The position numbers and the translations under genes are program-made. Under the pieces are notes generated by a model that was not told where the DNA came from, made no database searches, and saw only the letters and a list, made by a program, of their open reading frames with translations. A stretch of 32,000 nt of DNA from Candidatus Altimarinota bacterium (GTDB lineage: Bacteria > Patescibacteriota > Gracilibacteria > UBA1369), in contig JBAZYK010000006.1 of assembly GCA_041659405.1 (NCBI GenBank), forward strand, positions 60,001 through 92,000, in the 5' to 3' direction. Shown piece by piece: positions 243 to 20,848 of this stretch. Positions within the stretch are counted from its first letter, which is position 1. Every line of letters begins with the position of its first letter.

Positions 243-1286
243 ATGGCTCAACTTGATAAAATTTTCAGAACAGCGCTTCAATATAAAGCTTCCGATGTCT
301 ACATTTCCACCGGATCTAAGCCAATTCTGCGCATTAACGGCGATTTGATCCTGATCGATGAACACCCGGTTTTCACCAAGAAAATGGCCGAGGAGTTTCT
401 TTTGGAAATCATGACGGAAGATCAAAAGAAAGCTTTTGCCGCCAGTCTTGATTTGGATTTTTCGGTTGATGTTGAAAACATTGCCCGCTTCCGCGTAAAC
501 ATGTTCGTTCAAAGAAAAGGTATGGCGGGAGTTTTTCGTTTGATTCCGGAAGTAGTTTACAGCCTTGATGAACTTGGCCTACCGGAGCAATTAAAGAGAA
601 TTCCGGGATTTAAAAATGGCTTGGTGATTGTAACCGGACCAACCGGCTCGGGTAAATCGACCACCATGGCCGCAATTTTGAATGAAATTAACATTAGCGA
701 TGCCCAACATATTATTACAATTGAAGATCCAATTGAATTTGTTCACCAAAATAAAAAATCCATTTTTGAACAACGTGAAGTTAAAAGTCACACCAAAAGC
801 TTTGGTAGCGCCTTAAAATCAGCTCTGCGTGAAGATCCGGATGTGGTTTATATTGGTGAAATGCGTGATCTGGAAACAATTGCCCTGGCAATTACCGCAG
901 CAGAAACAGGACAACTCGTTTTAGCAACTTTGCATACAAGCGGTGCCGCCAAATCGGTTGATCGTATTATTGATGCTTTCCCATTTGAACAGCAAAACCA
1001 AGTGCGCGCCCAACTTTCCGAAAGTTTACGCGCCGTAATCTGGCAAAATCTTTTAAAAACCAAGGACGGGAAAGGCCGTATTGCAGCCATGGAAATGATG
1101 TTCAACAACAACGCCATTGCCAACATGATCCGCAAAGCTAAAACTCATCAGATTGATTCAGCGATTGAAACAGGCTTTAAAGAAGGCATGCAAACCATGA
1201 AGAAATCAGTCACGGATTTATTGGAAGCTGATTTAATCAGTGAAGACGAAGCTCTGGCTAGCATTCCAGCGGAGTTGGAGGCTTAA
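243..1286 (+). CDS. pilT: Type IV pilus retraction ATPase PilT
   Basis: 347 aa. Walker A GPTGSGKST, the ITIEDPIE motif, Walker B/His box (VVYIGEMRD, LATLHT) and the C-terminal AIANMIRKAKTHQI motif are typical of PilT, as is the length. Confidence 0.9.
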   Translation: MAQLDKIFRTALQYKASDVYISTGSKPILRINGDLILIDEHPVFTKKMAEEFLLEIMTEDQKKAFAASLDLDFSVDVENIARFRVNMFVQRKGMAGVFRLIPEVVYSLDELGLPEQLKRIPGFKNGLVIVTGPTGSGKSTTMAAILNEINISDAQHIITIEDPIEFVHQNKKSIFEQREVKSHTKSFGSALKSALREDPDVVYIGEMRDLETIALAITAAETGQLVLATLHTSGAAKSVDRIIDAFPFEQQNQVRAQLSESLRAVIWQNLLKTKDGKGRIAAMEMMFNNNAIANMIRKAKTHQIDSAIETGFKEGMQTMKKSVTDLLEADLISEDEALASIPAELEA

Positions 1287-1357
1287 GCAAGCCAAAGGCT
1301 TGCTCCGCGCCCCGCCTTGGCGGGGCATAGCAACAAAACCGTCCCGCCAAGCGGGAC
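1286..1357. terminator. Three consecutive GC-rich hairpins between the convergent pilT and rlmI-like genes; candidate bidirectional terminator
   Basis: AGCAAGCC-AAA-GGCTTGCT at 1286-1304. GCCCCGCC-TT-GGCGGGGC at 1309-1326. GTCCCGC-CAA-GCGGGAC at 1341-1357. On the minus strand the last hairpin is followed by GGTTTTGTTG. Confidence 0.55.
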
Positions 1358-1360
1358 TCC

Positions 1361-2617
1361 TTATCCTTTCTTCAGTAAAAGGTTAAATTTCAAATACTCC
1401 CCTTCCGGAAAATTGATTCGTAGTGGATGATCCGCGGGTTGAGTTTTGCTTTCCAGTAAAACCAAATCGGCATTAGCCTGCATGGCCGCTTTAAAAATTA
1501 TCGTCCTAAAAAGCGCCTGATCCACATGTGAAGAACATGAAGCTGTAGCCAAAATTCCACCGGGTTTTAAAACTTTCAAAGCCATTCTATTTAAGCGGAC
1601 ATAGCCATTAACCGCATTGGGCAGGTTTTCCCGACTTTTCACAAACGCCGGCGGATCCACAATCACCAAATCAAATTGCCGTTTTTCCGCAGAAGCTTTA
1701 TCCAAAAACGCAAAAACATCTTCGGCCACAAATTCATGTTGAGAACCGGAATCAGCACCTGTCCCAGCATTTTTTCCACTTTCATTATCAGCATCTTTGC
1801 CATTTTCAAACTCATTGAGTTTAAAATTTTTCCGGGCCAATTCCAAAGCATGTTTATCAACATCAACACTTATGGTTGAAATCGCTCCTCCAGAAGCAGC
1901 AGCAAGCGAAAATCCTCCACTGTAACTAAAAAGATTCAAAACCGATTTACCTTTAGAACAATCCGCCACCGCCTGCCGATTTTCGCGCTGATCAAGGAAA
2001 AAACCGGTTTTTTGCCCATGTTTCATATCCACAAAAAACTTCAAACCATGTTCCAAAATTTCATACTCATCCGCTGGCTCCACACCTGCCAACAAGCCTG
2101 TAGGTAAGGTTTGAAGCCCATCCTTTCGACGAACCTCAACATCACTGCGTTCATAAATTCCCTTGGGTTTAAAGACCTTTTGCAAAGCTTTAACCACAAT
2201 TTCACGCAGGCGATCCATCCCCAAAGTGTGAATCTGCACCACCAAAAATTCATTATATTTATCAACAATTAAGCCGGGAATCCCGTCACTTTCACTAAAA
2301 ACCAGGCGATACGCATTGGTTTTCCCCGGCAAAAACTTTTCACGCTGTTTTTTTGCCTGAGTAAAAGCATTTTCAAAAAATTTCTGATCAATTTCGATTT
2401 CTTCAGATCCAAAATAAAAAAGTCGCACCGCAATCTGGGAATGACTGTTGTAGTAACCTGTTCCCAAAATATGACCTTCCGAGTTGGTTATACGCACTAA
2501 AGTTCCACTTTCTATTCCCTGAACATGCTCCAAGGCTCTGGAAAAAAGCCAAGGATGTTTGAATTGAAGAGACCTTTCCCGTTCTTTTTTGATGATAATT
2601 CGTGGATACATGGGCAT
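1361..2617 (-). CDS. rlmI: RlmI-family SAM-dependent 23S rRNA m5C methyltransferase (PUA-like N-terminus plus class I MTase)
   Basis: Collinear similarity to E. coli RlmI: KHPWLF, SDGIPGLIVDKY, HGQKTGFFLDQR, LNLFSYSGGF, VIVDPPAF, DHP...FPEGEYLK. Start moved to ATG 2617 (MPMYPRIII) because the longer ORF reads through the tRNA. Confidence 0.85.
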   Translation of the reverse strand: MPMYPRIIIKKERERSLQFKHPWLFSRALEHVQGIESGTLVRITNSEGHILGTGYYNSHSQIAVRLFYFGSEEIEIDQKFFENAFTQAKKQREKFLPGKTNAYRLVFSESDGIPGLIVDKYNEFLVVQIHTLGMDRLREIVVKALQKVFKPKGIYERSDVEVRRKDGLQTLPTGLLAGVEPADEYEILEHGLKFFVDMKHGQKTGFFLDQRENRQAVADCSKGKSVLNLFSYSGGFSLAAASGGAISTISVDVDKHALELARKNFKLNEFENGKDADNESGKNAGTGADSGSQHEFVAEDVFAFLDKASAEKRQFDLVIVDPPAFVKSRENLPNAVNGYVRLNRMALKVLKPGGILATASCSSHVDQALFRTIIFKAAMQANADLVLLESKTQPADHPLRINFPEGEYLKFNLLLKKG

Positions 2618-2644
2618 TCGTGAAAATGATAATTTTTTGACTTT

Positions 2645-2721
2645 TGGTGGAGCTGAGGGGACTCGAACCCCTGGCCTCTTCCATGCCATGGAAGCGCTCT
2701 AGCCAACTGAGCTACAGCCCC
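2645..2721 (-). tRNA. tRNA-Ala (anticodon GGC) with encoded CCA
   Basis: The minus strand reads GGGGCTGTAGCTCAGTTGGCTAGAGCGCTTCCATGGCATGGAAGAGGCCAGGGGTTCGAGTCCCCTCAGCTCCACCA. It folds as a 77-nt cloverleaf with the G3:U70 alanine identity pair, anticodon loop AT-GGC-AT and a GGTTCGAGTCC T-arm. Confidence 0.95.
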
Positions 2722-2742
2722 AAATAAGCCAAAACAGCGCGA

Positions 2743-2771
2743 AGAATACCAAAAATGGCTTAAATACACAA
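2743..2771 (-). promoter_or_regulatory. Candidate sigma70-type promoter for tRNA-Ala (and rlmI)
   Basis: On the minus strand, TTGTGT (2771-2766), a 17-nt spacer, then TATTCT (2748-2743), about 20 nt upstream of the tRNA 5' end. Confidence 0.4.
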
Positions 2772-2788
2772 GATTTGATGCCCTCCCG

Positions 2789-2817
2789 TTGTTTTATAAG
2801 CCAAAAAATGGTATAAT
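2789..2817 (+). promoter_or_regulatory. Candidate promoter for the VirB2-like paralog cluster
   Basis: TTGTTT (2789-2794), a 17-nt spacer, then TATAAT (2812-2817) with an extended TG at 2809-2810. It lies 22 nt upstream of ATG 2839. Confidence 0.55.
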
Positions 2818-2838
2818 TTAGGGATTTAAAAAAACAAA

Positions 2839-3348
2839 ATGAAAAAAATAAAAAAGTATCTCATTTTAGGACTCCTTTTAATTCAAATGTTCGGCTCAAT
2901 TCCCGCTGTTTTTGCGGTTGTGAACAATGATGGACCACAGGCACCCGCACAAGGAGATGTCACTCCAACTCCAACTCCCACTCCAGCCACTCCAGCCACT
3001 CCCGCCGCTCCAAACTCCCTTATACAACAAGGCACCAGCAAGGAAAATCAACAATTCAAAGTCACCGATTATCTTAAAGCCAAAGACCAGGGAAGCGCAT
3101 ATTTAGGCAGCAAAGCTCCCATTGCCAGTTTTATCATTCAAATTATAAACTTTTTGGTTTTAACGATTGGCTCTCTCTCTTTTTTGGTAATTTTGATTGG
3201 TGGATTTATGTATCTTGTTTCACATGGCAATGAAACCCTTATAAACAAAGCAAAAGAAGCAATCACTTACGCAATTATGGGATTAGTTATTTCTCTTTCC
3301 GCTTACTTTATTGTCGCATTTGTTCAAAGCATTTTTTATGGACTCTAA
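2839..3348 (+). CDS. Secreted VirB2/TrbC-like (T4SS-pilin-like) small membrane protein, paralog 1 (TP-repeat linker)
   Basis: Signal peptide MKKIKKYLILGLLLIQMFGSIPAVFA, then the TPTPTPTPATPATPAAP linker. C-terminal two-helix hairpin with IGGFMYLVSHGNETLINKAKEAI...LSAYFIV. Confidence 0.7.
   Translation: MKKIKKYLILGLLLIQMFGSIPAVFAVVNNDGPQAPAQGDVTPTPTPTPATPATPAAPNSLIQQGTSKENQQFKVTDYLKAKDQGSAYLGSKAPIASFIIQIINFLVLTIGSLSFLVILIGGFMYLVSHGNETLINKAKEAITYAIMGLVISLSAYFIVAFVQSIFYGL
2962..3012 (+). repeat. Tandem ACTCCA / GCCACTCC(A/C) repeat encoding (TP)4(ATP)2AAP
   Basis: actccaactccaactcccactccagccactccagccactcccgccgctcca read directly inside paralog 1. Confidence 0.8.
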
Positions 3349-3952
3349 AAAAACAAAAATTTGGGCCAAAATTCTACTTTCCGGCATGATGATGTCGTTG
3401 ATGCTCAGTTTAAACATAGCCACAACTTCAGCACCTGCTTTTGCCGCTGCCATAGATTGCGATAACCTAAAAAAAGCAGACACAATTAAAGACTACATCA
3501 TCACAATCATGGAAGAAAGAATCAATCCACCGGGCACAAAGAACGCCGGTCAAAAGGGCGTAGAAATAAACACCAATAAAGATGAAGGTGTTTTAAATTG
3601 CTTTAGACAAACCACCCAAACTGATAAAGGACCAACCGAACAATATGTATCAACATGTAAACCAGGCGATAAAACCACCTGCCAACCGGTTCAAGTTATT
3701 TACGCCAAATCCGGAGCCAGCTTAATTTTCACCTACGTTGGCCTAATCTACCGCTGGGCCGCCGGAACAGCGGGCGTAATCACAGTCCTTTACCTGGTAG
3801 TTGCCGGAATCATGATGGCCAGTTCTCAAGGTGACGCCGCCAAATATGAAAAAGCCAAAGAATACATCATGAATTCGATTGCCGGCTTAGTGTTGCTCTT
3901 TTTATCCGCTTTGATTTTATACACAATCAACCCAAACTTTTTCACAATCTAA
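3338..3952 (+). CDS. VirB2/TrbC-like small membrane protein, paralog 2 (4-Cys ectodomain)
   Basis: Start chosen at ATG 3338 (MDSKKTKIW...APAFA signal peptide), overlapping the upstream stop by 11 nt. Four Cys in the middle region. C-terminal VAGIMMASSQGDAAKYEKAKEYI...LSALIL hairpin. Confidence 0.65.
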   Translation: MDSKKTKIWAKILLSGMMMSLMLSLNIATTSAPAFAAAIDCDNLKKADTIKDYIITIMEERINPPGTKNAGQKGVEINTNKDEGVLNCFRQTTQTDKGPTEQYVSTCKPGDKTTCQPVQVIYAKSGASLIFTYVGLIYRWAAGTAGVITVLYLVVAGIMMASSQGDAAKYEKAKEYIMNSIAGLVLLFLSALILYTINPNFFTI

Positions 3953-4365
3953 TGAAAAAAATCTTTCTCATCATTCTTGGAACATTGTTGATTGGAGCTT
4001 TGCAACTACCCATGATTTTTGCTGCAGCCACAATTTCAACTCCACCAATCAATCCACTTCAGGGTGAGGAAAAATCACCAATCTATCTTCCGGGAAGTGA
4101 TGCCCCAAATCAGGGATCATACATTCAGGGCAACTTTTTACCACGCGTCACCGGCACAATTATTGCCTTTGGCGGAGCACTTTCTTTGGTTTTTGTAATT
4201 ATTGGCGGCATTCAAATACTTACAGCTTATAAAGGCGATGAAGGACTTGGAAAAGCCAAAAAAACCTTAACCTTTGCGCTGGTCGGCTTTGTAATTTCTA
4301 TGCTTTCTTATGCCATCGTCCAGATCATTGTTTCTATCAATTTCACAACCCCACCTGTAAAATGA
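3952..4365 (+). CDS. VirB2/TrbC-like small membrane protein, paralog 3
   Basis: Signal peptide ...LPMIFA and a Pro-rich segment. C-terminal IGGIQILTAYKGDEGLGKAKKTL...LSYAIV. TAATG overlap with paralog 2. Confidence 0.7.
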   Translation: MKKIFLIILGTLLIGALQLPMIFAAATISTPPINPLQGEEKSPIYLPGSDAPNQGSYIQGNFLPRVTGTIIAFGGALSLVFVIIGGIQILTAYKGDEGLGKAKKTLTFALVGFVISMLSYAIVQIIVSINFTTPPVK

Positions 4366-4811
4366 TCCAAAAATTTATAAAAAAATCAGTTACACTCTTT
4401 TTGATTGCAGCCACGTTGCAAATGTTATTTGTGAGTGGATCGGTAATTGCTGCAGATCAACCGGCACCTCCTAAAAATAATGCCGGAGTTTCAACCGACC
4501 AATTACTTTACCCTTTCAATTATAAAAACGACACCACATCGGTTTCTTTGGTTAAAAAGCTTCCTTCCGGAACTCCACAAGTTATTATTGCAGGAGTTAT
4601 AAAATTGATTCTTTCAATTTGTGGAGTTTTAGCTTTAGTTTCTTTCACGGTGGCTGGCGTAATGTTTTTAACAGCGGCGGGAGCGGAAGAAAAAATCACC
4701 AAAGCCAAACACATGATCTTGTGGTCGATAGGAGCTTTAGCCATAATCGCGGTTTCATACGCAATCGTAACAGGCGTTTCTCAATTACAATTTTTCACTT
4801 CGGGACAATGA
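4362..4811 (+). CDS. VirB2/TrbC-like small membrane protein, paralog 4
   Basis: Signal peptide ...SGSVIA. C-terminal VAGVMFLTAAGAEEKITKAKHMI...VSYAIV. ATGA overlap at both ends. Confidence 0.7.
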   Translation: MIQKFIKKSVTLFLIAATLQMLFVSGSVIAADQPAPPKNNAGVSTDQLLYPFNYKNDTTSVSLVKKLPSGTPQVIIAGVIKLILSICGVLALVSFTVAGVMFLTAAGAEEKITKAKHMILWSIGALAIIAVSYAIVTGVSQLQFFTSGQ

Positions 4812-5320
4812 AAAAAATCCTCACAATCATCTTTGCGATTATCACTCTGACAAATTTTGGATTAGCCTGGAATTTGAATCAGGCTGTGCATGCCCAAAAC
4901 ACGCAGACAAGCACGCAAAACAACGCTGAGCAAAATGCCACCCAACAAAACACCCAAAGTTTTGGTTCGTATTTGCAGGGTCTGATTTCTTTACCCGACG
5001 AATTGCATCCAAACTTTGCCCCAGATGTTAAAATTGCAACCGGAGCCGATGGTAAAAGTTTGGAAAACACAAAAGGTTACGAAGCCGCATACGCCAACTT
5101 CTTCCTTCAACTTATTGCCGGAGGACTTTTATATTTGGCCGGCCCGGTCGCCATAGCAGTCATCGCCATTGGTGGTGTCCGCTACACCATTTCCCACGGT
5201 AACGAAACCATGCTGGAAGGCGCCAAAAAAACGTTGATGTACGGCGTCATCGGCCTTTTGATCATCATTTTCTCGTACGCCATCGTAAAGGGTATTGTCG
5301 GCGTAGTTGTTGGAATTTAG
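4808..5320 (+). CDS. VirB2/TrbC-like small membrane protein, paralog 5 (Q/N/T-rich ectodomain)
   Basis: Start set at ATG 4808 (MKKILTIIFAIITL...AVHA signal peptide), in an ATGA overlap with paralog 4. C-terminal IGGVRYTISHGNETMLEGAKKTL...FSYAIV. The 4619 start in the ORF track gives an implausible N-terminus. Confidence 0.7.
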   Translation: MKKILTIIFAIITLTNFGLAWNLNQAVHAQNTQTSTQNNAEQNATQQNTQSFGSYLQGLISLPDELHPNFAPDVKIATGADGKSLENTKGYEAAYANFFLQLIAGGLLYLAGPVAIAVIAIGGVRYTISHGNETMLEGAKKTLMYGVIGLLIIIFSYAIVKGIVGVVVGI

Positions 5321-7061: not shown

Positions 7062-8459
7062 TTACGAATTTAAGTTCGGATTCGCTTGAAGCCCTCCAGC
7101 TTTTTTCAAAACATCTGCATTAAGTTTCACATTAGCCGGCGCAAAACTCTGCCCACTTGGCGCACTCGCCGCATTTTTAGAACTATCCGTTCCATACAAA
7201 GAAAAGTTAAACACCGGCAAGAACGAACTCAAGCCAATATTCACATCAATACTTTGCAGATACTGATCATTCAAAGCAAAACCATCAGCTTTAATTGAAG
7301 CGGACTCTCGAACTAAACCTTCGCCTTTTTTAGCAATCACACGATAATAAATATTGGCTACACCGGCTGCAATCTCCTGTTGATCAAACGCAAGCACCGC
7401 CGGATTTACAACATTGGTCAAAACCAAATAATTTTGTGTATGATTTTGAACAAACTCTGAAATTGTGCAACCACCATCCTTCGCATTTTGAACAGCAATT
7501 TTTTCATCCAAAGTATTATTTTTGACCTTACCCTGAAAATTCTGATTATTTGAGTCTGAAAGATAACACTGACGAGCACCACTCCATGGTTTCCAGTCCC
7601 CCGTAACCGGATCAGTCAAAATTGGATACTGACAAATTGTTTTATCATTTGGCTGATCTACAATCTCTTTATTTGTACCAATACAAACCGGATTATCCGG
7701 AGAATTATCTTTAAGAGCAGGATAAAAATCCGAGATTGAATCGGTTGATTTAGAATCAGCCATATCACCAGTTTGAGAATAACCAAAAATCTTCCAACGC
7801 AACACATCTAAACGATCAATGATACCGGGATCCGCATTTAGAACAGAATTATTTTGATCACGCCAAGGAAAATAATATTCAATCATAAAATCTTCCACAT
7901 TTTTCATAGTAACATGCCCATTTGCATCTATCTCTGGCCGTGACAAAGGAATCACAATCGAGCCATTAAGCGGTAAAGCATTATAAGTTGCCGCAGCTGG
8001 AAGATTATTTGGACTCGTTGGCATTGCCCCGGCACTATTTGGGCTCACAATTTTGCCATCGGGACTCAACCAGACCAATTGATCCGGGTCAAAAGAAGGA
8101 ATGCTGTCCGCCTGATTCAGGATTTGATAAGAATAGTGGAAATCCGGATTTGATTTAGGATCAGCCTTAAAATCGACTTTGCCAGGAGTCCCATCTTTGC
8201 CATTTGTTTGATACCCCGGGGCATTTTCATGCAAATCCAGTAACGCATTTTCAATCCCCGCTTCGGCTGAAAAATAAGCTTTGCCTGAAGCCACCAAATC
8301 CTTGGTCTGGCGAATTTCCCGAATAACCAAATCGCTCATCCCCAAAGTCAAAACCATCAACACGCCCATCACCAAAATGGCAACTAAAAGCGCACTACCA
8401 GACTTGGAGCCGGCGCGACTTTCCACTTTCGATCTAATTTTTCGGATAACTTTTTTCAT
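7062..8459 (-). CDS. PilX-like large pilus-associated protein (putative minor pilin or tip component)
   Basis: The N-terminus GSALLVAILVMGVLMVLTLGMS...AYFSAEAGIENAL matches the PilX N-terminal pattern (hydrophobic helix followed by AEAG). It is the last gene of the pilus operon. The remaining roughly 400 aa are not recognised. Confidence 0.55.
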   Translation of the reverse strand: MKKVIRKIRSKVESRAGSKSGSALLVAILVMGVLMVLTLGMSDLVIREIRQTKDLVASGKAYFSAEAGIENALLDLHENAPGYQTNGKDGTPGKVDFKADPKSNPDFHYSYQILNQADSIPSFDPDQLVWLSPDGKIVSPNSAGAMPTSPNNLPAAATYNALPLNGSIVIPLSRPEIDANGHVTMKNVEDFMIEYYFPWRDQNNSVLNADPGIIDRLDVLRWKIFGYSQTGDMADSKSTDSISDFYPALKDNSPDNPVCIGTNKEIVDQPNDKTICQYPILTDPVTGDWKPWSGARQCYLSDSNNQNFQGKVKNNTLDEKIAVQNAKDGGCTISEFVQNHTQNYLVLTNVVNPAVLAFDQQEIAAGVANIYYRVIAKKGEGLVRESASIKADGFALNDQYLQSIDVNIGLSSFLPVFNFSLYGTDSSKNAASAPSGQSFAPANVKLNADVLKKAGGLQANPNLNS

Positions 8460-8464
8460 AAATA

Positions 8465-9223
8465 TTATTTGCGACTATAAACTCGTGAAGAAAAACTTGT
8501 TTGTAAATCCAATTTAAATGGCGTCAAACCCTTACCAACATTTTCTGCAGTCAAAAACACATTCACCAGCGGCTGAAACTGATCACCACTTTTATCCACA
8601 TTCAAAGCGGCATAAGGATTTACCGCCGGATTCAAAACAAAACCCAAATTTTTAATTTTCACATCATTAGACAAAAGATTGCGATAACCATCCTGATCAA
8701 CGCCTTCACTCCCATCTCCACCCTGAGGATATGCATCCTCAGCCTGCCATGAGCCACCACTATCATGCTTGTATTTTCTTACTTGAGCAGTATGTAATGC
8801 TAAATTAAAGCGATAAACTGTTAACTCGGTATTTTCTTTATCGATCAAAGCCAGATAATTTTGCTTGAATTGGCCTGTTATATCCGACTTAACATCAGAA
8901 GGACAAGCTTCCAAATTAGCAGACGGATCCGGATTATTATTATTTTGAGGTTGAAGTTCATAACAATCATAAGCCGGCGAACCCAAACGGGCATCCTGCG
9001 CCAAAGTTTCAAAAAATACACGCAATTCCGAATAGATTTTGCGCACGCCGTTGGCTTGTCTTTGCGATCTAATAATACCCACATAGGACTGCGAAACTAT
9101 CCCCAAAAATACAATAAAAATGGACATACTGATCAAAAGTTCGATCAAAGTGAAGCCTTTTCGACTCTGGTTGGAGCTGGAACTATTTTGTTTTTTGCCA
9201 ACTTTTTTCAGCAAATTCATCAT
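8465..9223 (-). CDS. Type IV pilin-like protein (prepilin, minor-pilin class)
   Basis: Class III signal peptide ...SRKG|FTLIELLISMSIFIVFLG with Glu5. Start set at ATG 9223, preceded by GGAAAGGAGG (SD) and in an ATGA overlap with the upstream gene. Confidence 0.8.
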   Translation of the reverse strand: MMNLLKKVGKKQNSSSSNQSRKGFTLIELLISMSIFIVFLGIVSQSYVGIIRSQRQANGVRKIYSELRVFFETLAQDARLGSPAYDCYELQPQNNNNPDPSANLEACPSDVKSDITGQFKQNYLALIDKENTELTVYRFNLALHTAQVRKYKHDSGGSWQAEDAYPQGGDGSEGVDQDGYRNLLSNDVKIKNLGFVLNPAVNPYAALNVDKSGDQFQPLVNVFLTAENVGKGLTPFKLDLQTSFSSRVYSRK

Positions 9224-9933
9224 AGTGGGCCTCCTTTCCAATCCGTAAGTTCGGTTGTTAAGCTGACTTCACGGTCACGGCCACTTTCGGTCCAAGAAAC
9301 CACGACAGTCACGCGATATTTTAAAGGTCGATCTTCGTTATTTTTATAATCAATCGGATTATTATAAGGAACGGTCACTGTTTCCACCTTTATGTAGCGG
9401 TGAAAAGGACTCGGCAGATCACTCTGTTCATGAACATATTTAACTAAAGGATCACCCTGTTTATAAAGCAAAGTCGCACTGGAAGTACTCACAGGTTGAT
9501 CATTTAAAACCTTAAGTGACCATGGCGCACAAGTTGCAATAGTAGCGCTATTAATTGTTGAATCCTTACAAAAATCAGGATCAGGATCTTTAAGATCCAA
9601 AGTATAATATTGAGTCAAATTCAAATCAGGCAAAGCGGAACCCCAAACCGAATTTTTCTGTGTACCTATTGTGCCCTTAAAATCCGCGCCCAAAAGCCAG
9701 TTGCTATCACGAACATTGCGCATGCCTTCAATCCCCTGCTGCGCCAGTTCAAAAGCCACCAAAGAGTTAATATTCTGACTATTGTTACGGATAATTGAAA
9801 CCAACAAATTTGTACTGGCCACAACCACCATAATCAAAACACTCATCGCCACAATGACTTCCGGCAGCGTAAAAGCCCCAGCCTTTCGAGCTATGGCCCA
9901 CGCTTTCCCCGATTGTGTTTTTTTCTTTAACAT
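9220..9933 (-). CDS. Type IV pilin-like protein (prepilin)
   Basis: N-terminus ...ARKAGA|FTLPEVIVAMSVLIMVVV, a prepilin motif with Glu5 and Ala at -1. Confidence 0.75.
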   Translation of the reverse strand: MLKKKTQSGKAWAIARKAGAFTLPEVIVAMSVLIMVVVASTNLLVSIIRNNSQNINSLVAFELAQQGIEGMRNVRDSNWLLGADFKGTIGTQKNSVWGSALPDLNLTQYYTLDLKDPDPDFCKDSTINSATIATCAPWSLKVLNDQPVSTSSATLLYKQGDPLVKYVHEQSDLPSPFHRYIKVETVTVPYNNPIDYKNNEDRPLKYRVTVVVSWTESGRDREVSLTTELTDWKGGPL

Positions 9934-10571
9934 TGATCGGGAGTTAAGATCGAAAAGACACCGGTAGTATTATTTAAAACAAAACAACGTTTATCGGCAG
10001 TACCAACCAAACCAATTACTATTTTCATTTGTTGAACAGAATTCACAACTCCAACAAAATCACGTTTTCCAAGTGGTGGTTTGTAAAAAACCTTCAAATC
10101 ATTTTGATCCTGCGAACTCTGATTTTGATCCATCAATGAAATTTTACTAATCTCCAAATCTTCAAATGAACTTATATTCATGGTTTGAACTGAATTTGCG
10201 CCACAAGCATCGGCATCATTACCCTGCACAGCGTGATAAGGATTTATCAAATATTGAACCGGAACGACCGGCTGACCACCCTGACCCTGACCATTTTGAG
10301 AATCAGAAACCCGCAAATCTACACCATAACAGGCAATTCCCGTTTGTGATTTTCCAGCTTCCTGAAATGTCACCAACTGCCCACTTTTAGCTTTCTGTTC
10401 CTGTTCTTTAAAAATACTAATAAGCGTATCCACACCCAATTCCAACTTGGCCTGTTTTCTGGTGGCGGCATAATTACCAACCGCAACCGCACCAATAATG
10501 CCAACGATTGTAATCACAACCAGCATTTCTATCAGTGTAAAAGCCTTTCTTGTTTGAGGAGCCTTGCGCAT
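9927..10571 (-). CDS. Type IV pilin (candidate major pilin by position directly after pilC)
   Basis: MRKAPQTRKA|FTLIEMLVVITIVGIIGAVAVGNY, a prepilin motif with Glu5 and Ala at -1. Confidence 0.75.
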   Translation of the reverse strand: MRKAPQTRKAFTLIEMLVVITIVGIIGAVAVGNYAATRKQAKLELGVDTLISIFKEQEQKAKSGQLVTFQEAGKSQTGIACYGVDLRVSDSQNGQGQGGQPVVPVQYLINPYHAVQGNDADACGANSVQTMNISSFEDLEISKISLMDQNQSSQDQNDLKVFYKPPLGKRDFVGVVNSVQQMKIVIGLVGTADKRCFVLNNTTGVFSILTPDQC

Positions 10572-10590
10572 CGAATCTTAGTACAAAAAA

Positions 10591-11841
10591 TTAAACCAGC
10601 TGACTTAAACGGAAAATCGGAGTAAGAATGGCCAAAGCCAAAATCGCTACAGTCAAGCCAACAAACACGATCATAATTGGCTCAAATAATGAAGTTAAAC
10701 GCTTCAAAGAATTATCAATTTCAAGATCATACTGCTTGGCGATTTTTCCGGAGATCAAACCAATCGAAGCCGATTGTTCGCCAACCGCCAACATCTGCAC
10801 AACTGTTTCCGGAAACAAAAAAGGCGTATCCATCAAACTGCTGGAAATTTTTTCACCCTGCTGCACGCGGGAAATCACCTCAAAAACTTTCAAACGATAA
10901 AGTTCGCTACTTAATGAAGTCGCCACAATATTTAAAATTTGAACCAAAGGCAAACCGGCTTCAACCAAAATTCCCAACATGCTTACAAAACGCAACACCA
11001 GCATGTTTCTAAAAAGTGGTCCCAGAATCGGTAATTTCAATTTAAAATAATCCCATTTATAACGACCACTTTCTGTAGTAACTATAATTCTAAAAAGTAA
11101 AACGGCTATAATCAGGCCAAAAAGGACGGCCCACCAATAACCCGCAAAAATCGCACTAATCGTAATCAACAATTTGGTCGCAAACGGAAAATCGGCCTCT
11201 TTAAGACCACCTTCCTGCAAAAGATTAACCAGAGTTGGAATCACCCAAATTAACATTGCGGTAGAAGCCAAAACCAAAACGCCCAAAACCGCTATAGGAT
11301 AAATAGAAGCGGTCACGAGTTTAATTTGAAGTTCATTGGTTTTGCTGAGCTGCTCGGACAAACGAAGTAACATTTTATCCAGATTTCCCGCAGCTTCCCC
11401 GGCTTTCACCACACCAACTTCCAGTTCACCAAAAACATTTGGAAAACGGGCCATGGATTCCGAAAGCGTTTTACCCTGACTAACGTTATAGGCAATTGTA
11501 TTCAAAATACGGCGAAGACGTTCACTTTTGGTCCTACCGGCAAGCATTTTTAAGCCCTGCATGGTTGGAATTCCGGCATCCACAATCACCGCCAAAAGTT
11601 GGAAAAAATAAGCTTTTTCCTGCAACGGCACATGACTATGATCAACAAAAAAGTCATTCAAGCGCGTAAAAAGCGAATGCCTGGAAGCGTCATACAAACC
11701 ATAAATAATTTCAGGCTTAGCGGCAGTCGCCTTGCTTTGACCGGCTTGCAGATCTTTTAAAACACTCTGCGAAGAACTCGTTGCATTGCTTGTGGCAGCA
11801 ACAGGCGCTTCGTTCGAATTTGAGAAATTAATTTTTTCCAT
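10591..11841 (-). CDS. pilC: Type IV pilus platform protein PilC (GspF family)
   Basis: 416 aa polytopic protein with duplicated GspF-type cytoplasmic domains (FPNVFGELEVGVVKAGEAAGNLDKML; FPETVVQMLAVGEQSASIGLI). Confidence 0.88.
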   Translation of the reverse strand: MEKINFSNSNEAPVAATSNATSSSQSVLKDLQAGQSKATAAKPEIIYGLYDASRHSLFTRLNDFFVDHSHVPLQEKAYFFQLLAVIVDAGIPTMQGLKMLAGRTKSERLRRILNTIAYNVSQGKTLSESMARFPNVFGELEVGVVKAGEAAGNLDKMLLRLSEQLSKTNELQIKLVTASIYPIAVLGVLVLASTAMLIWVIPTLVNLLQEGGLKEADFPFATKLLITISAIFAGYWWAVLFGLIIAVLLFRIIVTTESGRYKWDYFKLKLPILGPLFRNMLVLRFVSMLGILVEAGLPLVQILNIVATSLSSELYRLKVFEVISRVQQGEKISSSLMDTPFLFPETVVQMLAVGEQSASIGLISGKIAKQYDLEIDNSLKRLTSLFEPIMIVFVGLTVAILALAILTPIFRLSQLV

Positions 11842-11850
11842 AAAGTTTGA

Positions 11851-12408
11851 TTAAATTCGATCCTGATAATAAGTTTCCATGTTCAAATTAAAATTAACGC
11901 GGGTCGCACCGGTATCGGTTTTTCCGGTCTGCACCGTAATTGATTTCACCACCAATTTACGGGTATTCCCTTCAACCGCCCGCAAAAAATCAATCAAAGC
12001 GGTATCGCTGCTTGTAACATTAACATTTACAGTCGCCCTTTTAATTTTATCTTGAGTATTTCCGGCCAAACTAAAGTTCACGCCATTCAAAGTCACGTTG
12101 GCTTTTTGGGCAAGATCGGTCAAATCCTGCAAAAGTTTATCCTGTTCAAAACGCTCGGGAATAGAAGCCAAAGTTGTCTGCTGGCTGACTTCCGAACTTG
12201 CATTCAAGCTTTTCTGCAAATCCTGAAGATCCTGATATTGCTTGGAGAAAGTATCTTTTTGCTGTTGCAGACTAAAGACCTCGGTTTTCAAGCCGCCCAC
12301 CTCACTCCAAAGCGGACTAACGTAATAAAGGCCGCCTCCCAAAATAATCAAAAAAATGATTAAAGTTGGAAGAGCGTAATGTTTTTTGGATGATAAAGTC
12401 GTTGTCAT
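11851..12408 (-). CDS. pilO: PilO-like pilus assembly protein
   Basis: Single N-terminal TM helix, then a coiled-coil (LKTEVFSLQQQKDTFSKQYQDLQDLQ) and an alpha/beta C-terminus. It lies between the pilN-like gene and pilC. The call rests on architecture and synteny only. Confidence 0.55.
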   Translation of the reverse strand: MTTTLSSKKHYALPTLIIFLIILGGGLYYVSPLWSEVGGLKTEVFSLQQQKDTFSKQYQDLQDLQKSLNASSEVSQQTTLASIPERFEQDKLLQDLTDLAQKANVTLNGVNFSLAGNTQDKIKRATVNVNVTSSDTALIDFLRAVEGNTRKLVVKSITVQTGKTDTGATRVNFNLNMETYYQDRI

Positions 12409-12445
12409 AAAATTATTAAAATGGAAATTAATTTTGAGTTTAAGA

Positions 12446-13141
12446 TTATGGCACCAGGGTTTGTGTTAGGGCTGGAGCCACGGTTGGCGTTGCAGCCGGA
12501 TTTACTGTCGGAGTTCTTGGAACCGGTTTTGGTTGAATTTGAACCGATTGATCAACTACAGGCGTTAAATTTTCCGGAGCCTGTTCGGTATATGTAACAT
12601 TGAAAATAAAACTCAAAATGGTTTGGCCGTTATCGGCAAGGCCTTTAGTAACCGAAGGAATGTAAGCATCCCGGAAATAAGCACTATTGTTAAAAACATT
12701 AATAAGCTGAGAAACATCAGCAAATGGAGGAATTACGGCCGGAGTTGTTTCCGCGTTAAGCGTCAATTTTCCACCCGCCGCTCCGGAATAAGACAAAAAG
12801 TGAATTTTTGAAGCATTGCTAAATGAATCAACCGGAATATTTTTCTGCAAAGCGCTCAAAACCTTTGACCAGACAATTTCGCTTTTTTGACTTTCAGCGA
12901 GCCAATTTTTGGCCAACTGAGCCGCCTCAATCTTTTTACTCTTCAAATCGTTAATTTGGGTTTGGAGCAAATCGACGTCGGTCTTTATTTGATCGCGCTG
13001 CGATACAATTGCCGACTTTTGGAAAAAAAGATAAAATCCAGCTGCCGTTAATGAAAGAAGTAGAATAACCCCTAAAACAAGCAATGCCGGACTACTTTTT
13101 TGAACCTCGACGATCGAAGCTACCGTTTTTTTTGTTTCCAT
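12446..13141 (-). CDS. pilN: PilN-like pilus assembly protein
   Basis: Single TM helix, a coiled-coil (DVDLLQTQINDLKSKKIEAAQL) and a P/T-rich tail. It is the first gene of the operon. The call rests on architecture and synteny only, and no INLLP-type PilM-binding motif was seen. Confidence 0.5.
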   Translation of the reverse strand: METKKTVASIVEVQKSSPALLVLGVILLLSLTAAGFYLFFQKSAIVSQRDQIKTDVDLLQTQINDLKSKKIEAAQLAKNWLAESQKSEIVWSKVLSALQKNIPVDSFSNASKIHFLSYSGAAGGKLTLNAETTPAVIPPFADVSQLINVFNNSAYFRDAYIPSVTKGLADNGQTILSFIFNVTYTEQAPENLTPVVDQSVQIQPKPVPRTPTVNPAATPTVAPALTQTLVP

Positions 13142-20097: not shown

Positions 20098-20712
20098 GCT
20101 CTACCAGTGAATGATCGCTGCAGCTTTCTTTTCTAAAAAAAAGCATGAACGAAAAAGCTTGAAGCAAAGCGTGAATTATTTTGGGATTGGGTCTCGTGGG
20201 TCCCAATCCCAAAATAATTCCGCTACCGCGAAAAGCTTTTAAGTGAATACAATATAGGGAAAGAGAGCACCACGAGAGAAAACCGTCAGGTTGTCTCTCG
20301 TGAACTGCAGAGGAAAGTCCGAGCACCATGGAACAGGATGGCTTCTAACGGAAGCGGCTCAGCATGAAAGTGTTGAGTACGGAAAGTACCACAGAGACTA
20401 TGAAAGCTGCGCGCAAGCGTAGCCAAAGGTGAAAAGCCCAGTCGTAAAGCGTAAAATTCCAGGCCGCGGCGCAAGCCAATAAGCCAGAATGTAACGCCAG
20501 ACAGGGCGCCCCTCGGTGACGAGGAGACGTGGCAAACCCTATCCGGTGCAAGGTGGGATGGAAGAAAAAGATCAAGTTTTGTTCCAAAACCTTTTTCTGC
20601 CCACCGCACGATTTCATAGGCAACTATGAAACAAGAGAGATGATCATACTTTGTTTATGCGCCGCAAGGTGCATCAACAGAGAACAAAACTCGGCTTATG
20701 ATCTGGTAGAGC
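20098..20712 (+). ncRNA. rnpB: RNase P RNA (bacterial, type A-like specificity domain), unusually long
   Basis: GAGGAAAGTCCGAGC (20310-20324, CR-I) and ACAGAGAACAAAACTCGGCTTAT (20678-20699, CR-V). Also CGCGCAAGCG, AAGGTGAAAAG, CGTAAAGCG and GGCAAACCCTATCCGGTGCAAGG blocks. The 10-bp terminal helix pairs GCTCTACCAG (20098-20107) with CTGGTAGAGC (20703-20712). Ends are approximate. Confidence 0.85.
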
Positions 20713-20848
20713 AATATTGAAAACCAAAAATTATCGCAAAATCCATCCCCATCCGCTATACTTGCGAAGGTTTTTGAATTGCGCGACTTTGCTGCACGAC
20801 CATGCCCGCAACTTTCTCGCAAACTCCCACGCACCCTCACACCCGCAC

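What the first reader, a model, noticed from the sequence alone, without database searches (positions are those of the whole stretch)
2839..5320. Five tandem, translationally coupled VirB2/TrbC-like paralogs with unrelated ectodomains and no secretion machinery in cis
Seen directly:
- Five consecutive plus-strand genes (169, 204, 137, 149 and 170 aa) sit behind one TTGTTT-17-TATAAT promoter.
- Starts and stops overlap: 11 nt at 3338-3348, TAATG at 3950-3954, and ATGA at 4362-4365 and 4808-4811.
- Each protein has a cleavable signal peptide ending in AxA-like residues, then a middle region with no similarity between paralogs: TP repeat, 4-Cys, Pro-rich, Pro-rich, Q/N/T-rich.
- Each ends in a shared two-helix hairpin with the pattern [IV]-[GA]-G-x6-7-G-[NDA]-[EA]-x4-5-AK ... 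S-[YA]-x-I-[VL].

Established knowledge: signal peptide plus two hydrophobic helices is the architecture of conjugative and T4SS pilins (VirB2/TrbC), and such T4SS-pilin-like families are abundant but functionally uncharacterised in CPR genomes.

Inference: this may be an array of interchangeable surface or filament subunits with diversified exposed N-domains. No VirB4, VirB6 or VirD4 lies within 30 kb, so it would be assembled by unknown machinery. That makes it a candidate undescribed surface system next to a type IV pilus locus.
Basis: partly seen in the sequence, partly recalled or inferred. Interest (0 to 1): 0.72.

Follow-up and report, generated by a model that had tools for sequence, protein, structure and literature searches.

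The report
Conserved five-gene VirB2-like pilin operon
Five neighbouring genes in a Peribacteria (CPR/Patescibacteria) genome encode secreted two-helix "T4SS pilin-like" membrane proteins; such tandem arrays are already described in this phylum, so this is a new member of a known kind, though here it is a fixed five-member set kept next to pilT across the whole clade.

Summary
Five tightly packed plus-strand genes (2839-5320) each encode a signal peptide, a variable N-terminal segment and a conserved two-helix hairpin. All five hit Pfam T4SS_pilin (PF18895); P2 and P5 pass the gathering score.

The interpretation as an undescribed surface system does not hold. Tandem VirB2-like pilin arrays are published for Patescibacteria: 441 arrays of 2-11 genes, about 25% identity (PMC12102498). 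One such array is essential in Southlakia epibionticum (PMC10633639). Many pilin genes lie far from virB4, and T4SS genes are dispersed in the class Gracilibacteria, to which this Peribacteria-type genome most likely belongs.

What I add:
- The array is not a set of interchangeable copies. In 49 of 52 intact loci from related species there are exactly five genes, with 1:1 positional orthology where tested.
- Hairpins are conserved and N-regions are hypervariable.
- pilT lies co-directionally upstream in 57 of 64 loci and directly abuts the array in 40.
- No VirB4 lies within 10 kb in any Peribacteria locus. A Parcubacteria outgroup has a P2-like pilin right after a true VirB4.

I could not test whether this genome has VirB4 elsewhere. 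Verdict: new member of a known kind, modest interest.

The parts
2789..2817 (+). Promoter-like site: TTGTTT, 17 nt, TATAAT, with TGG immediately upstream of the -10 (extended -10)
   Evidence: Read directly. Not reported by the consensus scan because the -35 matches only 3 of 6. Function is inferred.
2839..3348 (+). P1, 169 aa. Signal peptide (cleavage about VFA|V after residue 26), a T/P/A-rich low-complexity N-region, and a VirB2-like helical hairpin (about residues 95-169)
   Evidence: ORF. PF18895 at 23.3 bits, E 7e-05. Hydrophobic segments at 9-27, 102-120 and 144-162. Best match in both relatives compared gene by gene is the first gene of their array. The TP repeat is a 6/9-nt DNA tandem repeat at 2962-3012.
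3338..3952 (+). P2, 204 aa. Signal peptide (AFA|A after residue 36), a small four-Cys beta ectodomain, a hairpin, and an invariant C-terminal LYTINPNFF tail
   Evidence: PF18895 at 34.4 bits, above the gathering score of 26.6. 92 homologues, most of them full length. Cys 41, 88 and 115 are invariant and Cys 107 nearly so. AF2 pLDDT 81.8, with strands at 54-123 and helices at 126-162 and 167-197. GenBank MFA5829571.1 is named 'pilin'.
3952..4365 (+). P3, 137 aa. Signal peptide (IFA|A), a short Pro-rich N-region and a hairpin
   Evidence: PF18895 at 19.8 bits, E 8.7e-04. NF045849 at 23.2 bits. Best match in both relatives compared is the third gene of their array.
4362..4811 (+). P4, 149 aa. Signal peptide (VIA|A), a short Pro-rich N-region and a hairpin
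   Evidence: PF18895 at 24.2 bits, E 3.6e-05. Best match in both relatives compared is the fourth gene of their array.
4808..5320 (+). P5, 170 aa. Signal peptide (VHA|Q), a Q/N/T-rich N-region and a hairpin
   Evidence: PF18895 at 28.3 bits, above the gathering score. TrbC PF04956 at 20.4 bits, below its gathering score. AF2 of the hairpin alone gives two helices, 2-41 and 46-82, pLDDT 76.6.
243..1286 (+). pilT (PilT/PilU family type IVa pilus retraction ATPase). In most relatives it is the gene immediately upstream of the array on the same strand
   Evidence: TIGR01420 at 442 bits (cutoff 319); VirB11 only 53 bits. Co-directional within 2 kb upstream in 57 of 64 loci and within 40 nt in 40. 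Example L035: pilT ends at 8878 and P1 starts at 8889.
1361..2721 (-). RlmI-like SAM methyltransferase (real start near 2617) plus tRNA-Ala(GGC) at 2645-2721. This is a lineage-specific insertion between pilT and the array
   Evidence: Pfam Methyltrans_SAM and PUA_3. tRNA. The methyltransferase is detected between pilT and the array in only a handful of related loci (L009, L010, L012, L016); the tRNA was not checked in relatives.
7062..13141 (-). Type IV pilus block downstream of the convergent MetRS gene: a GspK-like 465 aa protein, three prepilin-type proteins, PilC, PilO and a PilM/N-like protein
   Evidence: Pfam N_methyl, T2SSF and PilO. Weak NCBIfam hints to GspK and PilM. Same order in most relatives.

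Best explanation
The five genes are a chromosomal operon of Sec-exported VirB2-like proteins (Pfam T4SS_pilin, PF18895). The host is a Peribacteria/Peregrinibacteria bacterium, which I recall GTDB placing in class Gracilibacteria, phylum Patescibacteria. The operon is a member of the published class of patescibacterial 'VirB2 pilin arrays'.

Proposed mechanism:
- Each product is made with a signal-peptidase-I type signal peptide.
- The mature protein is a species-variable extracellular N-segment followed by a conserved helical hairpin.
- The hairpin sits in the membrane with both termini outside and a short K-rich loop in the cytoplasm.
- Tight packing and overlapping stop/start codons give coupled, roughly proportional synthesis.
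- The membrane pool is then most likely extracted and assembled, as a pilus or as the surface-exposed conduit, by the monoderm-type (MPF-FATA-like) T4SS that most Patescibacteria carry. In this class that system is encoded at dispersed sites elsewhere in the genome.
- The five proteins are non-redundant parts, for example one major and several minor or tip subunits, not alternative copies.

Shown here: family membership, architecture, operon structure, fixed five-fold orthology, hypervariable N-regions, and linkage to pilT and the T4P genes.
Inferred: topology, polymerisation, dependence on a distant VirB4, and division of labour among the five.
For: Family and architecture:
- All five have PF18895 as best Pfam hit. 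P2 and P5 are above the gathering score.
- Signal peptide plus two C-terminal hydrophobic helices in each.
- AF2 gives confident hairpins.
- Mean pairwise identity within the array is 29.5%, close to the 25% reported for published arrays.

Published precedent:
- 441 arrays of 2-11 pilin genes exist in Patescibacteria. The S. epibionticum pilin series is encoded within its T4SS gene cluster and is essential.
- Pilins are away from virB4 in 813 of 1,948 assemblies, and TrsD and VirB3 are rarely near virB4 in Gracilibacteria.

Comparative genomics done here:
- In the Parcubacteria outgroup L080, a P2-like pilin lies directly downstream of a true VirB4 (NF045971, 372 bits).
- Non-redundancy: Wn always best-matches An and Bn with 2-5 times the paralog score. 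Exactly five genes occur in 49 of 52 intact loci, in order 1-2-3-4-5 in 40.
- Hairpins are 39-52% identical to the window proteins, N-regions only 11-23%, with N-region lengths from 0 to 284 aa.
- A low-complexity extension sits at the N-terminus in window P5 but at the C-terminus in the L007 orthologue. This fits both termini being on the same, outer face.
- The array's GC content equals that of the surrounding window, which gives no hint of recent acquisition.
Against: - No VirB4, VirB6 or VirD4 lies in 51 kb of this contig.
- No VirB4 lies within 10 kb of the array in any of about 71 Peribacteria-clade loci (tblastn).
- I could not show that this genome, or any genome of the clade, has a VirB4 at all. 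That rests on class-level statements in PMC12102498.
- VirB6 homologues were reported as undetectable in Gracilibacteria.
- The TrbC/VirB2 Pfam model is not passed.
- Fold and sequence searches against solved structures gave no specific match to any conjugative pilin.
- The conserved operon-like adjacency is to pilT, not to a T4SS gene.
- No filament has ever been seen for any patescibacterial VirB2-like protein.
Confidence: 0.6

Rival explanations
1. In Peribacteria the five-protein set has been uncoupled from the T4SS. It works with the type IV pilus apparatus, or is at least regulated with it: it is co-transcribed with the retraction ATPase PilT and acts at the same envelope site as the T4P. 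It might form a membrane platform or a surface structure that needs PilT activity.
For: - pilT is co-directional within 2 kb upstream in 57 of 64 loci and directly abutting (within 40 nt, or overlapping) in 40.
- The T4P minor pilins, PilC and PilO follow on the other side in most loci.
- No VirB4 lies within 10 kb in any clade locus.
- VirB6 is reported as undetectable in Gracilibacteria.
Against: - Functionally unrelated genes (MetRS, TilS, RNHCP, FtsH) hold equally conserved positions. The block may therefore simply be rearrangement-poor.
- In the window lineage a methyltransferase and a tRNA gene separate pilT from the array, which has its own promoter-like site.
- No known T4P system uses Sec-signal-peptide two-helix hairpin proteins. 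The five lack the prepilin N-methylation motif.
- In an outgroup the same hairpin type sits next to VirB4.
Confidence: 0.15
2. The proteins do not polymerise. They are membrane-anchored surface display proteins, or small membrane-complex subunits, that use the VirB2-like hairpin only as an anchor and present the variable N-segment (for P2 a disulfide-bonded beta domain) to the host cell surface.
For: - The N-regions are the fast-evolving, length-variable part.
- P2 carries a folded four-Cys ectodomain of about 80 aa, up to about 280 aa in relatives. That is bulky for a canonical VirB2 filament.
- The helical hairpin has no specific structural match to solved pilins.
- Peribacteria are known for many exported Cys-rich proteins.
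Against: - The hairpins, not the ectodomains, are what is conserved, down to invariant G, G and A-K positions shared by all five paralogs. This points to a conserved packing or assembly interface rather than a generic anchor.
- Five co-conserved paralogs in fixed order fit a multi-subunit assembly.
- Profile homology is to T4SS pilins.
Confidence: 0.17
3. The array is a set of interchangeable or alternative pilus subunits that diversify the exposed surface for host-range or antigenic variation.
For: - Paralogs are only 21-37% identical, with unrelated N-regions.
- PMC12102498 suggests versatility towards different host strains, by analogy with the VirB2 paralogs of Bartonella and Anaplasma.
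Against: - Copy number is fixed at five in 49 of 52 intact loci.
- Each paralog's best match in two relatives is the gene at the same position, and the five classes keep the same order in 40 of 52 intact loci.
- The paralogs are ancient and individually maintained. No expansions, losses, or silent or partial copies were seen in the loci examined.
- The pilin series is essential in S. epibionticum.
Confidence: 0.05

Closest known systems
Patescibacteria VirB2-like pilin arrays (Quinonero-Coronel et al. 2025, Microb Genom, PMC12102498)
   Same: - Tandem PF18895/PF04956-type pilin genes in a CPR chromosome.
- Array size within the published range of 2-11 genes.
- About 25-30% identity between copies.
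- No relaxase was seen in the window's Pfam scans.
- Pilin genes frequently not next to virB4.
   Different: [quoted passage not shown]
- Here the array belongs to the Peribacteria clade and is a fixed five-gene orthologous set.
- It is linked to pilT and T4P genes. I did not find either point stated in the paper.
Southlakia epibionticum ML1 T4SS pilin series (Wang et al. 2023, Cell, PMC10633639; reviewed in PMC12857230)
   Same: [quoted passage not shown] Their essentiality implies the copies are non-redundant.
   Different: - There are six pilins there, located inside the T4SS gene cluster (SEML1_0006-0019) together with VirB4, VirB6 and VirB3.
- Here there are five, with no T4SS gene within 10 kb.
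- No experimental data exist for this clade.
VirB2/TrbC conjugative pilins of diderm T4SS (Pfam PF04956; e.g. Agrobacterium VirB2, RP4 TrbC, F TraA)
   Same: A long signal peptide followed by two hydrophobic helices joined by a short basic loop. Weak profile similarity (P5 20.4 bits, P2 15 bits).
   Different: - The PF04956 gathering score is not reached.
- There are long extra N-terminal segments or domains.
- The host is presumed monoderm (from the literature).
- No VirB4, VirB5, VirB6 or VirB11 lies in cis.
- There is no evidence for cyclisation or acetylation.
Tandem VirB2 paralogs of Bartonella and Anaplasma phagocytophilum T4SS
   Same: Multiple divergent virB2 copies in tandem on a chromosome.
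   Different: Those are thought to serve antigenic or host-interaction variation within a complete VirB system. Here the copies are ancient, fixed in number and orthologous across species.
Mbov_0395 family pilin-like conjugal transfer protein of mycoplasma ICEs (NCBIfam NF045849)
   Same: A small two-helix hairpin protein of a monoderm MPF-FATA-type system. All five window proteins give sub-threshold hits of 19-24 bits.
   Different: The cutoff of 40 bits is not reached. The mycoplasma protein is a single gene within an ICE, not a chromosomal five-gene array.

Membership tests
Pfam PF18895 T4SS_pilin | Profile match at or above the gathering score (26.6 bits) | tested here: met
   P2 34.4 bits and P5 28.3 bits pass. 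P1 23.3, P4 24.2 and P3 19.8 bits are below the gathering score but remain the best hit, with E 7e-05 to 9e-04. All five hairpins align with one another. Precomputed annotations mark orthologues of all five positions as PF18895.
Pfam PF04956 TrbC/VirB2 pilin | Profile match at or above the gathering score (27.9 bits) | tested here: not met
   Best scores are P5 20.4 bits (E 6e-04) and P2 15.0 bits; none for P1, P3 or P4.
VirB2-like pilin (architecture) | Cleavable Sec signal peptide followed by two hydrophobic helices joined by a short loop carrying basic residues | tested here: met
   Kyte-Doolittle segments, -3/-1 rule sites and loop K/R counts (heuristic only). AF2 helices at 126-162 and 167-197 in P2, and at 2-41 and 46-82 in the P5 hairpin.
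VirB2-like pilin (fold) | Structural similarity to solved conjugative pilins (F TraA, VirB2, TrwL and others) | tested here: inconclusive
T4SS component | Genetic linkage to VirB4 (within about 20 CDS) | tested here: not met
   No VirB4-type ATPase lies in the window or in 51 kb of the contig. tblastn with a bona fide patescibacterial VirB4 found nothing in any of the other 81 sequences searched (80 loci and the window; 1.22 Mb in all, query locus included). Only the outgroup L080 shows linkage.
T4SS component | A VirB4-centred T4SS present somewhere in the same genome | not testable with these tools
   Whole genomes cannot be scanned here. The attempt to identify clade VirB4 by contig-length matching failed. 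The literature reports VirB4 in 2,417 of 3,035 Patescibacteria assemblies and describes dispersed T4SS genes in Gracilibacteria.
Patescibacteria VirB2 array (sensu PMC12102498) | At least two pilin genes (PF18895/PF04956/CONJScan hits, i-E < 0.001, more than 50% profile coverage) in tandem or separated by one gene | tested here: met
   Five adjacent genes, all with E < 0.001 and 55-67 of the 71 profile positions covered. Mean pairwise identity is 29.5%, against 25% in the paper.
Conjugative pilus / filament | Polymerisation into an extracellular filament | not testable with these tools
NCBIfam NF045849 Mbov_0395 pilin-like conjugal transfer protein | Score at or above the 40-bit cutoff | tested here: not met
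   18.9-23.7 bits for P2-P5; no hit for P1.
Type IV pilin / pseudopilin | Prepilin N-terminal cleavage/methylation motif (PF07963) | tested here: not met
   None of the five hits N_methyl. The neighbouring genes at 8465-9241 and 9927-10571 do.

The most novel reading that the evidence does not exclude
In the Peribacteria clade the ancestral T4SS pilin module has been captured into a pilT-led operon. It now builds a five-subunit surface structure that depends on, or cooperates mechanically with, the type IV pilus motor rather than on VirB4. That would be a hybrid T4P/T4SS-pilin appendage not described in any bacterium.
Probability: 0.1. Interest if true: 0.75.

Novelty: new member of a known kind. 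Interest (0 to 1): 0.3.

Why it matters
VirB2-like pilin arrays are among the few Patescibacteria-enriched features shown to be essential for epibiotic growth, and nobody knows what they build.

This locus adds no new kind of system. The comparative result does sharpen the question in three ways:
- In a whole class-level clade the array is a fixed set of five individually conserved paralogs with hypervariable outward-facing N-segments. This favours a multi-subunit assembly with a host-facing variable surface over antigenic-variation or spare-copy models.
- The array is habitually the continuation of the pilT transcription unit. This suggests co-regulation of pilus retraction with the T4SS-pilin structure during host contact.
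- The annotation can be improved. In GenBank, four of the five genes are still 'hypothetical protein'.

Tried and rejected
1. Could the upstream T2SSE-family ATPase be a VirB11, which would put T4SS machinery in cis? Rejected. TIGR01420 PilT/PilU scores 442 bits, VirB11 only 53 bits.
2. Could unannotated neighbours be hidden T4SS parts? NCBIfam and Pfam scans of ten unannotated ORFs gave only weak T4P-type hints (GspK, PilM) or nothing.
4. Attempt to show VirB4 in the same genomes by matching contig lengths.
   - The VirB4 search listed only 120 Paceibacteria sequences about 90% identical to the query.
   - The representative search gave 150 diverse VirB4 without taxonomy.
   - Cluster look-ups of 16 representatives gave no Peribacteria label and no contig-length match.
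   - Clustering the representatives did not separate classes.
   - I abandoned this and left the last homology search unused.
5. The supplementary tables of PMC12102498 were cut when stored and hold no Peregrinibacteria rows.
6. A literature search for Peregrinibacteria plus VirB4 returned nothing. The Peribacteria genome paper mentions only T2SS and T4P.
7. Recent horizontal acquisition of the array. GC content matches the surrounding window and the array is conserved clade-wide, so there is no sign of it.
8. An RNA element upstream of P1. Rfam finds none; its only hits in the window are the tRNA and RNase P RNA.
Full report
**What is in the sequence**

The stop/start overlaps are also as described: 11 nt at 3338-3348, TAATG at 3950, and ATGA at 4362 and 4808. 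Gene calls made independently on the public source contig (ENA ERZ27249449 k141_167353, 110.5 kb) give the same five products. GenBank chose longer starts for P3 and P4.

The hexamers TTGTTT-17-TATAAT are present at 2789-2817, with a TGG that makes an extended -10. The consensus scan does not list the site because the -35 matches only 3 of 6.

Each protein begins with a basic n-region, a hydrophobic core and an AXA-like site. Each ends with two hydrophobic segments of about 19 residues separated by a loop carrying 2-4 Lys/Arg. That analysis is a heuristic script; no dedicated signal-peptide or TM predictor was available.

The middle regions are unrelated in sequence.

**What the proteins are**

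All five have Pfam PF18895 (T4SS_pilin) as their best hit:

| Protein | PF18895 bits | Against gathering score 26.6 |
|---|---|---|
| P1 | 23.3 | below |
| P2 | 34.4 | above |
| P3 | 19.8 | below |
| P4 | 24.2 | below |
| P5 | 28.3 | above |

E-values range from 2e-08 to 9e-04. The classical TrbC/VirB2 model PF04956 is approached only by P5 (20.4 bits) and P2 (15 bits), below its gathering score of 27.9. Four of the five also give sub-threshold hits to the mycoplasma ICE 'Mbov_0395 pilin-like conjugal transfer protein'.

AlphaFold2 on P2 with 79 homologues gives pLDDT 81.8. The model shows a signal-peptide helix, a small beta ectodomain and a long helical hairpin at 126-162 and 167-197. Three of the ectodomain's four Cys are invariant and the fourth nearly so. 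The P5 hairpin alone folds as two helices.

Neither model finds a specific match among solved structures, and PDB sequence profiles find nothing. A bare helical hairpin is too generic for this test, and the more sensitive libraries were unavailable. Family membership therefore rests on the sequence profiles and the architecture.

**Organism and context**

P2 is GenBank MFA5829571.1, 'MAG: pilin [Candidatus Gracilibacteria bacterium]'. The other four are 'hypothetical protein' WC843_03690 to WC843_03710. Relatives are labelled Candidatus Peribacteria, Peregrinibacteria or Gracilibacteria. NCBI places Peribacteria in Peregrinibacteriota. I recall, without having tested it here, that GTDB places Peribacterales and UBA1369 in class Gracilibacteria of Patescibacteria.

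The window holds the following, in order:
- pilT at 243-1286 (TIGR01420, 442 bits; not VirB11)
- an RlmI-like methyltransferase
- tRNA-Ala
- the five-gene array
- a convergent MetRS gene
- a type IV pilus block: a GspK-like protein, prepilin-type proteins, PilC, PilO and a PilM/N-like protein
- housekeeping genes, including SecA, FtsH, FtsK and RNase P RNA

No VirB4, VirB6 or VirD4 lies in the window. None lies in the 51 kb of the contig that I could read.

**What is already known**

Tandem arrays of VirB2-like pilins in Patescibacteria are published.
- Wang et al. [quoted passage not shown] They noted this as unusual for a monoderm-type system.
- Quinonero-Coronel et al. 2025 searched 3,035 genomes with PF18895 and PF04956. 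They found VirB2-like pilins in 1,948 VirB4-containing assemblies, next to virB4 in only 1,135 of them. They also found 441 arrays of 2-11 genes, with a mean identity of 25%.
- The same paper states that in class Gracilibacteria, TrsD and VirB3 homologues are rarely near virB4, and VirB6 is undetectable.

A missing virB4 within 30 kb is ordinary for it.

**What comparative genomics adds**

A scan of one genome per GTDB species with the P2 alignment returned 73 loci, nearly all from this clade, including three complete chromosomes. I built an HMM from the hairpins and ran it over all ORFs of these loci.

- Copy number: 49 of 52 loci in which the array is not cut by a contig end have exactly five hairpin genes, in tandem on one strand and spanning 2.0-2.8 kb.
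- Order: 40 loci show the BLAST class order 1-2-3-4-5.
- Orthology: in two relatives compared gene by gene, each window protein's best match is the gene at the same position. Its score is 2-5 times that of any paralog.
- Divergence: across 59 arrays the hairpins are 39-52% identical to the window proteins. The N-regions are only 11-23% identical and vary from 0 to 284 residues.
- Topology hint: the low-complexity extension of the fifth protein is N-terminal in the window and C-terminal in L007. This fits both termini facing the same, outer side.

The five are therefore ancient, individually conserved paralogs with a fast-evolving exposed part. They are not interchangeable copies or a variable-number cassette.

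**Linkage**

pilT lies co-directionally within 2 kb upstream of the array in 57 of 64 loci and directly abuts it (within 40 nt, or overlapping) in 40. In L035, for example, pilT ends at 8878 and P1 starts at 8889. A methyltransferase is detected between pilT and the array in only a few lineages, the window's among them, and in the window a tRNA gene lies there as well.

MetRS and the T4P block follow downstream in most loci. However, TilS, RNHCP and FtsH are equally fixed in position. The block as a whole is rearrangement-poor, so only the operon-like pilT junction carries functional weight.

A bona fide patescibacterial VirB4 was found in the outgroup locus L080 (NF045971, 372 bits). There a single P2-like pilin follows it directly, and dnaA lies about 2.6 kb beyond the pilin gene. 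The same VirB4 has no tblastn match in any other locus (1.22 Mb searched). One clade member, L071, has a weak T4CP-like ATPase about 6 kb upstream of its array.

**Interpretation**

The best-supported reading (confidence about 0.6) has these parts:
- The genes form an operon of Sec-exported VirB2-like membrane hairpins with outward-facing, species-specific N-segments.
- They are made in coupled fashion and, in most relatives, co-expressed with pilT.
- They are assembled by the dispersed monoderm-type T4SS of this class into a pilus or surface conduit used in host contact.
- The five proteins play distinct structural roles.

Three rivals remain:
- The set has been uncoupled from the T4SS and works with the T4P apparatus (0.15).
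- The proteins are non-polymerising membrane-anchored display proteins (0.17).
- They are interchangeable variants (0.05), a reading the orthology data largely refute.

**What I could not do**

I could not establish whether this genome, or the complete genomes of the clade, encode VirB4 elsewhere. Whole genomes cannot be scanned with these tools, and my indirect route failed. That single computation decides between the main explanation and the more novel T4P-linked reading.

**Verdict**

This is a new member of a known kind, with a modestly interesting clade-wide organisation: a fixed five-gene set led by pilT.

Noticed in passing
window 20282-20714 (+): Bacterial RNase P RNA class A (RF00010, 143.7 bits). 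The 107-aa ORF at 20286-20609 on the minus strand overlaps it and is spurious.
   Followed up: no
window 243-2838; L035 7808-8889: In most relatives pilT directly abuts the first VirB2-like gene (a 10-nt gap in L035). In the window lineage an RlmI-like methyltransferase and tRNA-Ala(GGC) lie between them, and the array has its own promoter-like site.
   Followed up: yes
L080 7626-14672 (Parcubacteria bacterium C7867-005): A true VirB4 (CD1110 family, 372 bits) is followed directly by a single P2-like pilin, with dnaA about 2.6 kb beyond the pilin gene. This is the classical patescibacterial arrangement and contrasts with the Peribacteria loci.
   Followed up: partly
window 3338-3952 (P2) and alignment A2: The P2 family has an almost invariant C-terminal tail, LYTINPNFF, and four conserved Cys in a small beta ectodomain. 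The tail may be a recognition or processing signal; VirB2 and TrbC are C-terminally processed in other systems (recalled from memory).
   Followed up: no
L007 11452-11940 versus window 4808-5320: The fifth protein carries its low-complexity T/Q/S/G-rich extension at the C-terminus in L007 but at the N-terminus in the window. This is consistent with both termini being extracellular.
   Followed up: no
L074 13958-18190, L061 13811-17929, L058 13517-17416, L053 14012-17608, L026 5521-8958 and others: ORFs of about 950-1,400 aa lie on the MetRS / T4P side of the array in several relatives but not in the window. The two that were scanned (L074, L026) have no Pfam hit. They may be lineage-specific surface proteins.
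   Followed up: partly
L014, L038, L050: Contigs deposited as Myxococcales, Nitrospirae and Nitrospirota MAGs carry the same array (truncated by the contig end in L014) with pilT adjacent. They are probably mis-binned Peribacteria contigs.
   Followed up: no
window 2839-5320 (P2-P5): Sub-threshold but consistent hits (19-24 bits) to NCBIfam NF045849, a pilin-like protein of mycoplasma ICEs. This hints that monoderm MPF-FATA systems may have VirB2-like proteins after all, contrary to the usual statement.
   Followed up: no
(proteins P0099-P0218): Paceibacteria VirB4 is extremely conserved. The best 120 clusters (each already collapsed at 90% identity) are all 88-93% identical to the L080 protein, apart from the query's own cluster.
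   Followed up: no
L071 1153-3405: A 750-aa T4CP-like ATPase (weak TraD, CedD and DUF87 hits) lies about 6 kb upstream of the array in one Peregrinibacteria MAG. It is not present at that position in the other loci examined.
   Followed up: partly
window 1361-2689 (-): The mechanical ORF of 442 aa runs into the tRNA-Ala gene. The called gene is 418 aa, which puts its start near 2617.
   Followed up: no
window 2962-3012: The T/P-rich segment of P1 is encoded by imperfect 6- and 9-nt tandem repeats (ACTCCA, CCACTCCAG). This is a plausible source of length variation in the N-region.
   Followed up: no
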